A DNA stretch of 25,468 nucleotides. Origin: a virus. Both the position numbers and the translations under genes were made by a program. The stretch is from the UHGV virus genome UHGV-0122056. The stretch is one strand, 5' to 3'. The notes below the pieces were generated by a model. It searched no databases. It had not been told where the DNA came from and was given only the letters and a program-made list of their open reading frames with translations. Within the stretch, counting starts at the first letter, position 1. Each line of letters starts with the position of its first letter. Below, piece by piece: positions 4,413 to 7,839 of the stretch.

Positions 4413-4487
4413 GGGTCAGTCGTATAAAGGTCATTACGGAAGGCTGTTAACCTTCTTATCGTGGTTCGAGCCCACGCTGTCCCGCCA
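4413..4487 (+). tRNA. tRNA, anticodon GUU (Asn) by manual cloverleaf folding
   Basis: 75 nt ending in CCA; acceptor stem GGGTCAG/CTGTCCC (one T-T mismatch), anticodon stem GAAGG/CCTTC, loop CTGTTAA, T-arm CGTGG-TTCGAGC-CCACG; D-stem is weak (3 bp). Confidence 0.7.
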
Positions 4488-4492
4488 AACAT

Positions 4493-4568
4493 GCTGGTTT
4501 AGCTCCAATGGTAGAGCAGTCGCCTTGTAAGCGAATGGGTAGCGGTTCAAGTCCGTTAACCAGCACCA
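4493..4568 (+). tRNA. tRNA, anticodon UGU (Thr) by manual cloverleaf folding
   Basis: 76 nt ending in CCA; perfect 7-bp acceptor stem GCTGGTT/AACCAGC, D-arm GCTC-CAATGGTA-GAGC, anticodon loop CTTGTAA, T-arm AGCGG-TTCAAGT-CCGTT. Confidence 0.85.
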
Positions 4569-6096: not shown

Positions 6097-6246
6097 ATAG
6101 GTATTTCACCGCGCACCGCAGCGCACAATAACCACCGAACCTGACCCTTTGGAATGGGCCTTTGAGGATACCAGTTAGTGCTGGCGAGCCTCGGTGGGCT
6201 GGTTTCCTGTGCGGCAAAGGTTCATTTCGAAGTAGCAGGTAACGCC

Positions 6247-6783
6247 ATGAATGAATTAATTGTGAATCATGACTTTGACTTTCGCCAGTTAGTTACCGCA
6301 GCAGAAGGTCAACCGGTAACTGACACCTTCCAGATCGCAAAGGCATTTGGTAAGCGTCATGCGGACGTATTGAGGGCGCTGAAAAATTGTCATTGCTCTG
6401 AAGATTTCCGGAGAGCGCATTTTTGCGTTGCCGAAAAAATCAATGACTTAGGGATTTTCGACAAGAAACAGATTTACTACCGCATGGACTTTAGTGGCTT
6501 CGTTATGCTGGTCATGGGATTTAATGGCGCAAAAGCCGACGCTGTTAAAGAGGCCTATATAAATGCCTTTAACTGGATGTCAGCAGAACTCCGTAAGTAC
6601 AGCGAAAGTTATGAAGCAGAACGCAACGCCATAATGCTGGAGTATATGAAAGAGAAGGATGTCGCCAGTATGTCTGGCCGCCTGCTCAATCGCTGGGGAA
6701 AAATTAAGAAGCCTCAGCTACTGGCGAGAATTGAACGCCTTGAACAGCACGGGCAAACCGTAATCCCCGGGCTCACTAATTAA
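6247..6783 (+). CDS. Rha-family phage regulatory protein
   Basis: N-terminal region with Rha-domain hallmarks (...GKRHADVLRALKN..., ...YYRMDFSGFVMLVMGFNGAKADAVKEAYINAFNWM...); start set at ATG 6247, while the track ORF extends to an upstream in-frame alternative start at 6178. Confidence 0.8.
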   Translation: MNELIVNHDFDFRQLVTAAEGQPVTDTFQIAKAFGKRHADVLRALKNCHCSEDFRRAHFCVAEKINDLGIFDKKQIYYRMDFSGFVMLVMGFNGAKADAVKEAYINAFNWMSAELRKYSESYEAERNAIMLEYMKEKDVASMSGRLLNRWGKIKKPQLLARIERLEQHGQTVIPGLTN

Positions 6784-6995
6784 CGGCAGTACCGCGAAGC
6801 AACCCAAGCCAGTAAGTGGGGAAATAACACTGGCAGCCACTGAAAGATGAACCTCCTGCCTTATGGCAAAAAAGATTCTTTGTGGTGGCGGACTGATGGA
6901 AAGACATCGGTTATTGCAGAGGCCATTCAATGAGTGGTCTCGACAATGAGTAAAAGCACAATATGTGAGGCAGAAACGAATTGGTTATATTGAGT

Positions 6996-7139
6996 TTAGG
7001 ATGGATTTGAGCCCATAGGGAGTGGGAACGTAACCCAGCCCCCGAGGTAGAAGAGAGCGACATCGACCATGGTGAGTTCTTCGGTATTCGAGGTTAAGCG
7101 TTTTACCGTATTCATGAATTTTTCTGAATATTTCCTCAT
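6996..7139 (-). CDS. Candidate small ORF (47 aa) with C-terminal hydrophobic segment
   Basis: ATG at 7139 (minus strand) preceded by AAGGGGG with 5-nt spacing; product MRKYSEKFMNTVKRLTSNTEELTMVDVALFYLGGWVTFPLPMGSNPS. Lies inside the inverted-repeat-bounded segment; AT-rich region, so a spurious ORF is possible. Confidence 0.25.
   Translation of the reverse strand: MRKYSEKFMNTVKRLTSNTEELTMVDVALFYLGGWVTFPLPMGSNPS
7009..7024. repeat. Left arm of a 16-bp perfect inverted repeat (GAGCCCATAGGGAGTG)
   Basis: Exact reverse complement of 7259-7274; the arms are separated by 234 bp. Confidence 0.9.
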
Positions 7140-7258
7140 GGCAACCCCCTTGCTTTTGGCTATATCGCTAACAACTTTTACTGCTTTTGGTATCAGTGGA
7201 TAAAACAAAAGTCCTACTGCTGTAATGTTTTTCACCACTTGAACGATATCGCTTCCGG

Positions 7259-7274
7259 CACTCCCTATGGGCTC
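7259..7274. repeat. Right arm of a 16-bp perfect inverted repeat (CACTCCCTATGGGCTC)
   Basis: Exact reverse complement of 7009-7024; ends 37 bp upstream of the small-terminase ATG. Confidence 0.9.
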
Positions 7275-7311
7275 GTAGGGAGATAGTTTAACTAAATAAA
7301 GAGAATAAGCA

Positions 7312-7839
7312 ATGGCACTCACCGACAAACAAGAGATGTTCTGTCGCGAGTACCTCATCGATTTAAATGCCACGCAAGCGGCTATTCGGGCGGGGTACAG
7401 CGCAAAGACAGCTAACCGTACCGCATCCGAAAACCTGTCAAAACCTGACATCAAGTTAAGAATCTCCGAACTGAAAGCGCAACGCAATGATCTTGTTGGT
7501 ATTAATGCAGAATATGTACTTAACCGCCTTATTGAAATCGACCAGATGGATGTGCTCGACATTCTCCTGCAAAACGGTGAGTTAAAGCCCATTAAAGACT
7601 GGCCTAAGGTATGGCGCACAACGCTATCAGGAATGGATGTCGTGGAGATGGTATCCGCAGATAGTGCCGCACTTCTGAAGAAAATCAAATGGCCTGATAA
7701 GGTCAAAAACCTCGAACTTCTTGGTAAGCATGTTTCCGTTCAGGCATTTAAAGAACAAGCTTCTCACGAGCTAACCGGCAAAGACGGCGGCGCAATCCAG
7801 ATTGAAACATCACCGATGAGCACTCTGTTCGGAAAATGA
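7312..7839 (+). CDS. Terminase small subunit (Terminase_2 family)
   Basis: N-terminus MALTDKQEMFCREYLIDLNATQAAIRAGYSAKTA... carries the characteristic small-terminase DNA-binding motif; ATGA overlap with the large subunit. Confidence 0.85.
   Translation: MALTDKQEMFCREYLIDLNATQAAIRAGYSAKTANRTASENLSKPDIKLRISELKAQRNDLVGINAEYVLNRLIEIDQMDVLDILLQNGELKPIKDWPKVWRTTLSGMDVVEMVSADSAALLKKIKWPDKVKNLELLGKHVSVQAFKEQASHELTGKDGGAIQIETSPMSTLFGK

What the first reader, a model, noticed from the sequence alone, without database searches (positions are those of the whole stretch)
6996..7274. 16-bp perfect inverted repeat bounding a 234-bp segment with an SD-preceded small ORF at the lysis/packaging junction
GAGCCCATAGGGAGTG (7009-7024) and its exact reverse complement (7259-7274) flank an AT-rich segment immediately upstream of the small-terminase gene. 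On the minus strand inside it, an ATG at 7139 preceded by AAGGGGG opens a 47-codon ORF ending in a hydrophobic stretch (VALFYLGGWVTFPLPMG). This is the slot where lambda carries the moron bor. Arms this long and exact are unlikely by chance in 25 kb. They could be a long-range RNA/DNA structure, recombination or inversion sites, or a remnant miniature mobile element delivering a small membrane peptide.
Basis: seen in the sequence. Interest (0 to 1): 0.5.

Follow-up and report, generated by a model that had tools for sequence, protein, structure and literature searches.

The report
mRNA-clamping repeat in a prophage accessory gene
The 16-base inverted repeat is real, and it is best read as the outer stem of a conserved long-range RNA helix that folds the leftward transcript of a small orphan accessory gene sitting where phage P22 carries its pid gene; it is not a mobile element or an invertible switch.

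Summary
GAGCCCATAGGGAGTG (7009-7024) and its exact complement (7259-7274) form the only inverted repeat of 14 nt or more in the window. About 0.08 such pairs are expected by chance, and about 0.003 within 500 nt.

Comparison of eight sequence variants from E. coli, Citrobacter-type and metagenome prophages shows the repeat is the outer helix of a 38-bp, five-segment long-range helix. This helix pairs 7274-7232 with 7075-7056 and 7027-7009.

On the minus-strand RNA, 303 of 304 pair cells hold. Eleven variable pairs pass through G·U and none through A·C (P about 0.0005), and three pairs in the repeat show compensatory changes. On the plus strand the same cells give 22 mismatches.

The unit carries a conserved minus-strand ORF of 47 aa from AUG 7139, or 79 aa from GUG 7235. 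The ORF has an invariant Shine-Dalgarno sequence and shows purifying selection. Its product has no homologue outside its own family.

The unit replaces the pid cassette of P22 between identical flanks, so it is another accessory gene ("moron") in that slot.

It is single-copy, has one orientation in all loci and has no target duplication. The transposon and inversion readings are therefore rejected.

The helix works like the 5'-3' clamps of hok and aapA1 toxin mRNAs, but no antitoxin RNA was found and toxicity is untested.

The parts
7259..7274 (-). Right arm of the repeat. It is the 5' strand of the outer helix A and lies in the 5' untranslated leader of the minus-strand RNA.
   Evidence: In L004, L006 and L011 an in-frame stop lies 5 codons upstream with no start before GTG 7235, and L005 also has no earlier start, so the arm lies outside any conserved ORF.
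7009..7024 (-). Left arm of the repeat. It is the 3' strand of helix A and lies inside the ORF, at the codons for P-L-P-M-G-S.
   Evidence: Pairs 7:268, 8:267 and 9:266 show compensatory changes.
7232..7256 (-). 5' strands of inner helices B-E (7256-7254, 7253-7244, 7242-7240, 7237-7232). They include the conserved GUG at 7235-7233.
   Evidence: The RNAalifold consensus and pair counts are. The GUG has an unpaired probability of 0.00 in 7 of 8 full-length folds.
7056..7075 (-). 3' strands of helices C-E (7065-7056, 7069-7067, 7075-7070), lying within the ORF.
7025..7027 (-). 3' strand of helix B. The stretch 7028-7055 forms a small side hairpin.
6996..7139 (-). 47-aa ORF (MRKYSEKFMNTVKRLTSNTEELTMVDVALFYLGGWVTFPLPMGSNPS). 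It has the only canonical Shine-Dalgarno sequence, AAGGGGG at 7151-7145, which is invariant in all 8 variants.
   Evidence: pN/pS is 0.24 with no stop codon in any variant.
6996..7235 (-). Alternative 79-aa ORF from the first start codon shared by all variants (GUG). The upstream 32 codons show a coding-like substitution pattern.
   Evidence: One search lists the shared starts. pN/pS is 0.36 for the stretch 7140-7258, which contains these codons. Substitutions at codon positions 3/1/2 are 33/19/12, P=0.002.
7285..7312 (-). Proximal promoter-like site TTGCTT-16-TAAACT. The -35 hexamer overlaps the terS ATG, and the predicted transcription start lies 1-4 nt before the right arm.
   Evidence: The match is 7 of 12 here, below the scan threshold. 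It is 9 of 12 in six relatives, as TTGATA or TTGCTA, 16 nt, then TAAACT or TAAAAT.
7459..7487 (-). Site homologous to the mapped P22 pid promoter (TTGCGT-17-GATTCT). It lies inside the terS coding sequence, and the equivalent transcription start is about 7452.
   Evidence: Alignment A6. Ppid and its transcription start were mapped experimentally in P22/BTP1 (PMC8835761).
6949..7312 (.). Cassette that replaces the P22 pid ORF and terminator between shared flanks.
   Evidence: Window 6100-6948 is 96.5% identical to P22, and 7313-7562 is 74% identical to the P22 terS remnant. The sequence in between is not homologous.
7312..7839 (+). Small terminase gene (Pfam Terminase_2), transcribed divergently from the unit.

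Best explanation
The inverted repeat is the terminal 16 bp of a conserved 38-bp, five-segment long-range RNA helix. The helix forms in a leftward (minus-strand) transcript of a small orphan accessory gene (a 'moron'). The gene lies between the lysis and packaging genes, antisense to the late operon, in the slot where P22 carries pid.

The helix pairs the 5' leader (7274-7232) with the last ~22 codons of the ORF (7075-7056 and 7027-7009). This closes the message on itself.

The most likely role is post-transcriptional. The clamp would protect the mRNA, standing in for the Rho-independent terminator that stabilises pid mRNA and is absent here. It also buries the upstream GUG start, which leaves initiation to the internal AUG with its Shine-Dalgarno sequence. 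This is the principle used by hok (tac/fbi) and aapA1 toxin mRNAs.

Shown: the repeat is non-random, the helix is conserved with strand-specific G·U and compensatory changes, the ORF is conserved under purifying selection, the unit is allelic to pid, and it is single-copy with a fixed orientation. Inferred: transcription of the minus strand, the transcript ends, which start codon is used, and the stabilising or translation-gating role.
For: The repeat is non-random.

Eight distinct variants, 83-87% identical to the window and gap-free between the arms, were recovered from independent contigs.

The RNAalifold consensus contains the helix. On the minus strand 303 of 304 pair cells are standard pairs, 21 of them G·U. 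On the plus strand the same cells give 22 C·A or A·C mismatches and no wobble.

Eleven variable pairs have a G·U state and none has an A·C state. The expected share under a null based on non-helix transition rates is 0.50, giving P=0.0005. Pairs 7:268, 8:267 and 9:266 carry two Watson-Crick types.

Transversions are depleted in the helix, at 1 of 16 variable columns against 23 of 52 outside (P=0.006).

Sliding the 3' partner by 1-3 columns drops pairing from 99.7% to 33-47%. The fold z-score is -4.1, and the helix persists in a 606-nt context.

For coding, the ORF frame is the only one open in all variants. pN/pS is 0.24 and 0.36, and third-position substitutions are enriched (P=0.002).

For the slot, the flanks are shared with P22 while the cassettes differ. 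The P22 cassette is pid. pid is a proven moron transcribed against the late genes from a promoter in the terS remnant (PMC3573128; PMC8835761). That promoter region is conserved here.

The tool found a promoter-like site just before the arm in relatives.
Against: There are no expression data for this locus.

The window's own proximal promoter match is weak (7 of 12), and the scan reports no promoter at 6700-7500.

No intrinsic terminator follows the ORF. The nearest candidate is at 6873-6852, so the transcript ends are unknown.

The Shine-Dalgarno sequence and AUG of the 47-aa ORF are about 50-60% unpaired in full-length folds. The clamp is therefore not a simple Shine-Dalgarno sequestering switch.

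Only eight variants exist, effectively two or three clades. Covariation statistics are modest: 8-13 of 500 shuffles reach the observed scores.

G·T is also the most stable mismatch in single-stranded DNA, so a minus-strand ssDNA structure is not formally excluded.
Confidence: 0.6

Rival explanations
1. It is a genuine type I toxin-antitoxin module. The small hydrophobic peptide is a membrane toxin. The 5'-3' clamp keeps the full-length mRNA inert until it is processed. An antisense RNA, either a dedicated one or the late-operon read-through transcript, neutralises it.
For: A 5'-3' long-distance interaction is a hallmark of hok and aapA1 mRNAs (PMC9841398; PMC5416894; PMC8594479). The unit is 266 nt and AapA1-FL is 253 nt. 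The product is small, basic and partly hydrophobic. The GUG start is buried in the helix.
Against: No conserved plus-strand promoter lies within the unit. There is no Rfam match. The Shine-Dalgarno sequence of the AUG is not sequestered. Hydrophobicity is borderline, 1.6 against 2.5 for Hok. There is no Pfam, NCBIfam or PADLOC toxin match. The 3' strand of the clamp lies in the coding region, not in a 3' UTR.
Confidence: 0.15
2. It is a structured non-coding or processing element. The helix would be an RNase III stalk in a minus-strand antisense RNA that regulates the late transcript upstream of terS, and the ORF would be incidental.
For: There is a long, near-continuous duplex of 19 bp followed by 19 bp. 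The RNA is fully complementary to the late-mRNA leader of terS. Gene callers disagree on the ORF, giving 62 to 160 aa.
Against: The ORF frame has no stop in any of the 8 variants, the lowest pN/pS and third-position enrichment. The Shine-Dalgarno sequence is invariant while the neighbouring codons vary. The unit persists where no intact terS is adjacent (L004, L005, L006 and L015).
Confidence: 0.12
3. It is a DNA-level site: terminase recognition (pac) boxes, or crossover sites for recombination or inversion.
For: The repeat lies immediately upstream of terS. The homology boundary of several relatives falls within 2 nt of the left arm.
Against: The strand asymmetry of variation, 11 to 0, is not expected for duplex DNA sites. 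Complementarity extends into imperfect inner helices that pair fully only with G·U. The orientation is the same in all 20 loci. The unit is retained next to decayed or truncated terS genes and next to unrelated terminases. No recombinase gene is adjacent.
Confidence: 0.05
4. It is a remnant miniature inverted-repeat transposable element carrying a passenger ORF.
For: The unit has terminal inverted repeats, is compact at 266 bp, and is conserved as a discrete block.
Against: There is one place per genome, in 2 of 5426 E. coli genomes. The arm-gap-arm pattern finds only the same 6 viral contigs and nothing in 185,579 species-representative genomes. There is no target-site duplication. The unit always sits in the same slot, and the alternative allele is pid rather than a clean empty site.
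Confidence: 0.03
5. It is a structure in the plus-strand late mRNA that controls terS translation or processing.
For: The plus strand is certainly transcribed in lytic growth. In the E. coli lineage the outer helix is also perfect on that strand.
Against: There are 22 C·A or A·C mismatches and no wobble on the plus strand across the variants. The terS ribosome-binding region lies outside the helix. The unit persists without a functional downstream terS.
Confidence: 0.05

Closest known systems
P22 / BTP1 pid moron locus (Cenens et al. 2013, PMC3573128; Wolput et al. 2022, PMC8835761)
   Same: The chromosomal slot is the same, with shared flanks: window 6100-6948 at 96.5% identity and 7313-7562 at 74%. 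The orientation is the same, against the late operon. Both encode a small ORFan protein (86 aa against 47-79 aa). Both ORFs have a canonical Shine-Dalgarno sequence. The region homologous to the mapped pid promoter, in the 5' part of a Terminase_2 terS gene, is present here. The papers note that related phages carry other inserts, or none, at this site. PS34 is the empty allele.
   Different: There is no sequence similarity between the cassettes or the proteins. pid ends in a Rho-independent terminator that stabilises its mRNA, whereas this unit has none and instead has the 38-bp 5'-3' helix. Here terS is intact rather than a decayed remnant. The function is unknown, and no link to dgo is implied.
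hok/sok and aapA1/IsoA1 type I toxin mRNAs (tac/fbi stem and 5'-3' long-distance interaction)
   Same: The message is small (about 270 nt) and its 5' leader pairs with its 3' part in a long, conserved, wobble-tolerant helix. The product is a short basic and hydrophobic protein. A start codon is buried in the clamp (PMC9841398, PMC5416894).
   Different: The 3' strand lies in the coding sequence rather than a 3' UTR. The Shine-Dalgarno sequence of the best start is not sequestered. No antisense antitoxin was found. There is no homology to any toxin family. Toxicity is untested.
Lambda bor and other late-region morons (established knowledge of lambdoid genomes)
   Same: It is an accessory gene between the lysis and packaging genes, on the strand opposite to late transcription.
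   Different: The product is unrelated. bor encodes a lipoprotein and has conventional transcription signals.

Membership tests
Phage moron (Hendrix/Juhala sense) | Extra DNA between genes or flanks that are adjacent or differently filled in related phages | tested here: met
   The flanks are shared with P22 and PS34. P22 carries pid here, PS34 carries nothing, and the window carries the repeat-bounded unit.
Phage moron (Hendrix/Juhala sense) | Own promoter, independent of the surrounding operon | tested here: inconclusive
   The proximal site scores 9 of 12 in six relatives but 7 of 12 in the window, where the scan finds none. The region homologous to the mapped Ppid promoter is present. There are no expression data.
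Phage moron (Hendrix/Juhala sense) | Own terminator | tested here: not met
   No intrinsic terminator lies at the end of the ORF. The nearest terminator-like site is at 6873-6852, in shared flank DNA.
pid family | Protein homologous to Pid | tested here: not met
   BLASTP gives no alignment at E<=100.
Type I toxin-antitoxin | 5'-3' long-distance interaction in the toxin mRNA | tested here: met
   A 38-bp helix is conserved with G·U and compensatory changes on the ORF strand.
Type I toxin-antitoxin | Shine-Dalgarno sequence or start codon sequestered in the full-length mRNA | tested here: inconclusive
   The GUG at 7235 is fully paired, but the Shine-Dalgarno sequence and AUG at 7139 are about 50-60% unpaired.
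Type I toxin-antitoxin | Antisense RNA antitoxin with its own promoter | tested here: not met
   There is no conserved plus-strand promoter-like site in the unit and no Rfam hit. The promoter scan has limited sensitivity.
Type I toxin-antitoxin | Small hydrophobic membrane toxin that kills or arrests cells when expressed | not testable with these tools
   Hydrophobicity is borderline at 1.59-1.66. The AlphaFold2 model is low-confidence and helical, with pLDDT 56.
Miniature inverted-repeat transposable element | Multiple dispersed copies | tested here: not met
   There is one place per genome. The arm pattern finds no other units.
Miniature inverted-repeat transposable element | Target-site duplication flanking the terminal repeats | tested here: not met
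   The flanks are ...GGATGGATTT and GTAGGGAGAT..., with no direct repeat in any variant.
Invertible DNA switch | Both orientations found among related genomes | tested here: not met
   All 20 loci are collinear with the terS start.
Invertible DNA switch | Adjacent site-specific recombinase | tested here: not met
   The neighbours are Rha and the small terminase.
Terminase pac recognition site | Co-inheritance with a functional cognate terS | tested here: not met
   The unit is retained beside decayed or truncated terS fragments and beside unrelated terminases.

The most novel reading that the evidence does not exclude
The unit is a new kind of self-gated prophage toxin or exclusion gene. A small protein mRNA would be held closed by a 5'-3' clamp whose 3' strand lies in its own coding region. 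There would be no dedicated antitoxin. The phage late transcript would act as the antisense silencer, so the protein is made only in lysogens or carrier cells. Cleavage of the clamp could yield a non-stop message; the fast-evolving tail beyond the left arm is consistent with this.
Probability: 0.1. Interest if true: 0.65.

Novelty: new member of a known kind. Interest (0 to 1): 0.42.

Why it matters
The pid slot of P22-like phages is one of the few moron sites where an ORFan has been tied to a host phenotype. This work shows that a rare E. coli and Citrobacter-type prophage lineage fills the same slot with an unrelated ORFan. Its message carries strand-specific evolutionary evidence for a 5'-3' clamp, an architecture so far associated mainly with type I toxins. 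That gives a concrete, testable candidate for a new post-transcriptionally gated accessory gene. It also shows that PGAP's 108-aa CDS call for this locus (WP_024244326.1) starts too far upstream. The work also clarifies that the recurrent terS 5' fragment next to such morons is the promoter-bearing part of the module.

Tried and rejected
- A search of the INPHARED phage collection with 6940-7320 found no match, even in distant mode. Only the left flank, 6780-6948, is widespread.
- The protein-pattern scan of GTDB species representatives found none, and the arm-gap-arm scan found none.
- The JGI metagenome scan added one identical copy.
- An exhaustive profile search of 1.8 billion representative proteins found only the family itself, plus two long repetitive proteins. 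Those two matched the untranslated N-terminal extension and were ignored.
- The AlphaFold2 model had pLDDT 56, too poor for a fold search.
- PDB, Pfam, NCBIfam and PADLOC gave nothing meaningful. PHROGs gave only phrog_36259, of unknown function.
- Rfam gave nothing for the unit.
- The plus-strand 44-aa ORF (7069-7203) was rejected. It has extra stops in some variants and pN/pS of 0.50.
- The PGAP 108-aa start at 7322 was rejected because it is not conserved.
- The local hairpin at 7261-7282 was rejected as a general feature because relatives have a 3-4 nt deletion there.

Full report
**Observation**

The window is a P22-like prophage late region. It is 100% identical to E. coli A11 (NZ_CP028763) and 97.6% identical to strain MMC-J-0105 from position 6769 onwards.

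GAGCCCATAGGGAGTG at 7009-7024 and its exact reverse complement at 7259-7274 are confirmed. This is the only inverted repeat of 14 nt or more in the window. Shuffles give 0.075 perfect 16-mers per window at any distance and none within 500 nt; the analytic values are 0.076 and 0.003.

The minus-strand ATG at 7139, with AAGGGGG 5 nt upstream, opens a 47-aa ORF. The segment is only mildly AT-rich.

**Distribution**

The left flank, 6780-6948, is common in lambdoid and P22-like phages, but 6940-7320 has no match in 50,697 phage records. The unit occurs in 2 of 5426 complete E. coli genomes, once in each. It also occurs in six IMG/VR contigs and one JGI metagenome contig. It occurs in no GTDB species representative.

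Protein-cluster look-ups show about 150 E. coli contigs with an essentially invariant unit. A diverged form is found in Citrobacter freundii.

Contig look-ups gave five diverged copies, L003-L007. Together with L011 and L012 this makes eight distinct variants. They are 83-87% identical to the window and gap-free between the arms.

Every locus has one copy, in one orientation relative to a Terminase_2 terS start codon or its decayed remnant. No target-site duplication is present. These facts argue against a multi-copy mobile element and against an invertible segment.

**What the repeat is**

Folding the minus-strand RNA places the arms in a closing stem that continues inward. The consensus fold of the eight variants gives five helices:

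- 7274-7259 with 7024-7009, which is the repeat itself
- 7256-7254 with 7027-7025
- 7253-7244 with 7065-7056
- 7242-7240 with 7069-7067
- 7237-7232 with 7075-7070

Together these make 38 pairs.

On the minus strand 303 of 304 pair cells are standard pairs, 21 of them G·U. Read on the plus strand, the same cells give 22 C·A or A·C mismatches and no wobble.

Eleven different pairs have a G·U state and none has an A·C state. With transition rates taken from the non-helix columns, the null share is 0.50, so P is 0.0005.

Three pairs in the outer part of the repeat carry two Watson-Crick types:

- Pair 7:268 is G-C in most variants, A-U in L005 and G·U in L006.
- Pair 8:267 is C-G in the window, U·G in six variants and U-A in L003.
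- Pair 9:266 is C-G in most variants and U-A in L005.

Transversions are depleted in the helix, at 1 of 16 variable columns against 23 of 52 outside (P=0.006). Sliding the partners by 1-3 columns drops pairing from 99.7% to 33-47%. The helix persists in a 606-nt context.

The shuffle control is only moderately significant, with 8-13 of 500 shuffles reaching the observed scores, because there are few variants. The strand asymmetry is the strongest argument that selection acts on a minus-strand RNA.

**The gene**

The minus-strand frame is the only one open in all eight variants. Its pN/pS is 0.24 for 7025-7139 and 0.36 for 7140-7258, the lowest of the six frames.

Substitutions fall 33, 19 and 12 at codon positions 3, 1 and 2 (P=0.002). 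The position labels printed are shifted by one.

In L004, L006 and L011 a 4-nt indel puts a stop five codons upstream of the right arm, and L005 has no earlier start. The first start shared by all variants is therefore GUG 7235 (79 aa), followed by UUG 7208 and AUG 7139 (47 aa). PGAP's 108-aa call from 7322 is therefore too long.

The Shine-Dalgarno sequence AAGGGGG is invariant while the adjacent codons vary. In full-length folds the GUG is fully paired, and the Shine-Dalgarno sequence and AUG are about half unpaired.

Beyond the left arm the predicted C-terminal tails differ in length and sequence between lineages. Conservation therefore ends with the helix.

The protein is an orphan:

- It matches only phrog_36259, of unknown function.
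- Pfam, NCBIfam, PADLOC and PDB gave nothing meaningful.
- The exhaustive profile search found no relative outside its own family.
- The AlphaFold2 model is helical but has pLDDT 56.
- Hydrophobicity is borderline for a membrane span.

**The slot**

P22 shares window 6100-6948 at 96.5% identity. It also shares 7313-7562 at 74%, as an unannotated, decayed 5' fragment of this type of terS gene.

Between these flanks P22 has 397 nt and the window has 364 nt, and the two stretches are not homologous. The P22 stretch encodes an 86-aa minus-strand protein followed by a terminator. This protein is annotated as the Pid regulatory protein in BTP1.

pid is an experimentally characterised moron. It is transcribed opposite to the late genes, and other phages have another insert or none at its site (PMC3573128). 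PS34 is the empty allele and lacks both the cassette and the terS fragment.

The pid promoter and transcription start were mapped 174 nt upstream of the pid ATG (PMC8835761). By my coordinate mapping this lies inside the antisense of the terS fragment. The same paper shows that the pid terminator is needed for mRNA stability.

The homologous promoter region is present in the window inside the intact terS gene, as TTGCGT-17-GATTCT at 7487-7459. The equivalent transcription start is about 7452.

A second promoter-like site lies just before the right arm. It is TTGATA or TTGCTA, 16 nt, then TAAACT or TAAAAT, scoring 9 of 12 in six relatives and 7 of 12 in the window. It is the only candidate in the Citrobacter-type loci, where the terS fragment is cut to about 44 nt.

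In five contigs (L009, L013, L015, L016 and L020) the unit is followed, as in P22, by a decayed terS fragment, a homologue of P22 ORF80, other small ORFs and then an intact terS.

**Mechanism**

The best-supported reading is that the repeat clamps the 5' leader of this moron's mRNA to the end of its own coding region.

By analogy with the hok tac/fbi stem and the aapA1 long-distance interaction, such a clamp gives a compact, nuclease-resistant and translationally restrained message (PMC9841398; PMC5416894; PMC8594479). Here it could replace the missing terminator as the stabilising element, and it hides the upstream GUG. This step is inferred, not shown.

Membership in the type I toxin-antitoxin class is not established. 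No antisense promoter or RNA family was found. The main Shine-Dalgarno sequence is accessible. Toxicity is untested.

**Rivals**

- A non-coding RNase III stalk or antisense regulator is disfavoured by the coding signal.
- A DNA-level pac, recombination or inversion site is disfavoured by the strand asymmetry, the fixed orientation and persistence without an intact terS.
- A remnant transposable element is disfavoured by the copy number and the absence of a target-site duplication.
- A plus-strand late-mRNA structure is disfavoured by 22 mismatches across the variants.

**Verdict**

The feature is real and non-random. It is explained as an RNA helix within a new, rare member of the pid-slot moron class. 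Interest is moderate.

Noticed in passing
window 7313-7562; L022 1501-1746 (P22); L015 2584-2830; L003 3872-4120: A 5' fragment of about 250 nt from this Terminase_2 terS gene recurs as a decayed remnant with the same right breakpoint (~7562-7565) in P22 and many relatives. By my coordinate mapping it contains the experimentally mapped pid promoter. The remnant therefore appears to be the promoter-bearing part of the moron module rather than junk.
   Followed up: partly
window 6863-6949: A 28-codon stub (MAKKILCGGG...) is the N-terminus of ST64T orf118 (DUF2560). It is cut off at the junction where homology to other phages ends.
   Followed up: partly
window 6852-6873 (minus strand): A terminator-like hairpin followed by a U-rich tail lies here. 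The equivalent site is annotated as a minus-strand terminator in phage L (MW013502). It could end the leftward transcript about 135 nt beyond the left arm.
   Followed up: partly
window 7261-7282: A local hairpin (CTCCCTAT GGGCTC GTAGGGAG) overlaps the right arm and creates a third TAGGGAG copy. It is present only in the E. coli lineage, because relatives have a 3-4 nt deletion there. It could compete with the long-range helix if transcription starts upstream.
   Followed up: no
window 4413-4568: Two phage-borne tRNA genes, Asn-GTT and Thr-TGT, lie between the antiterminator and the lysis genes.
   Followed up: no
window 6765-6838: There is a sub-threshold Rfam match to Proteo-phage-1 RNA (17.6 bits against a gathering score of 42; E=1.8), in DNA shared with many lambdoid phages.
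   Followed up: no
L004 3586-3762 and L005 956-1132: A conserved 58-aa ORF (MGFFDALKDMVTSKEP...GGHDHRYNTG...) lies just upstream of the unit on the same strand in two unrelated contexts. In L005 it sits next to an Ivy lysozyme-inhibitor gene.
   Followed up: no
L005 2864-3067: A further, different small ORF (MSFTVMNPFTNRPLEECPDG...) sits in the same position next to a second decayed terS fragment, antisense to it. This suggests the slot hosts several alternative cassettes.
   Followed up: no
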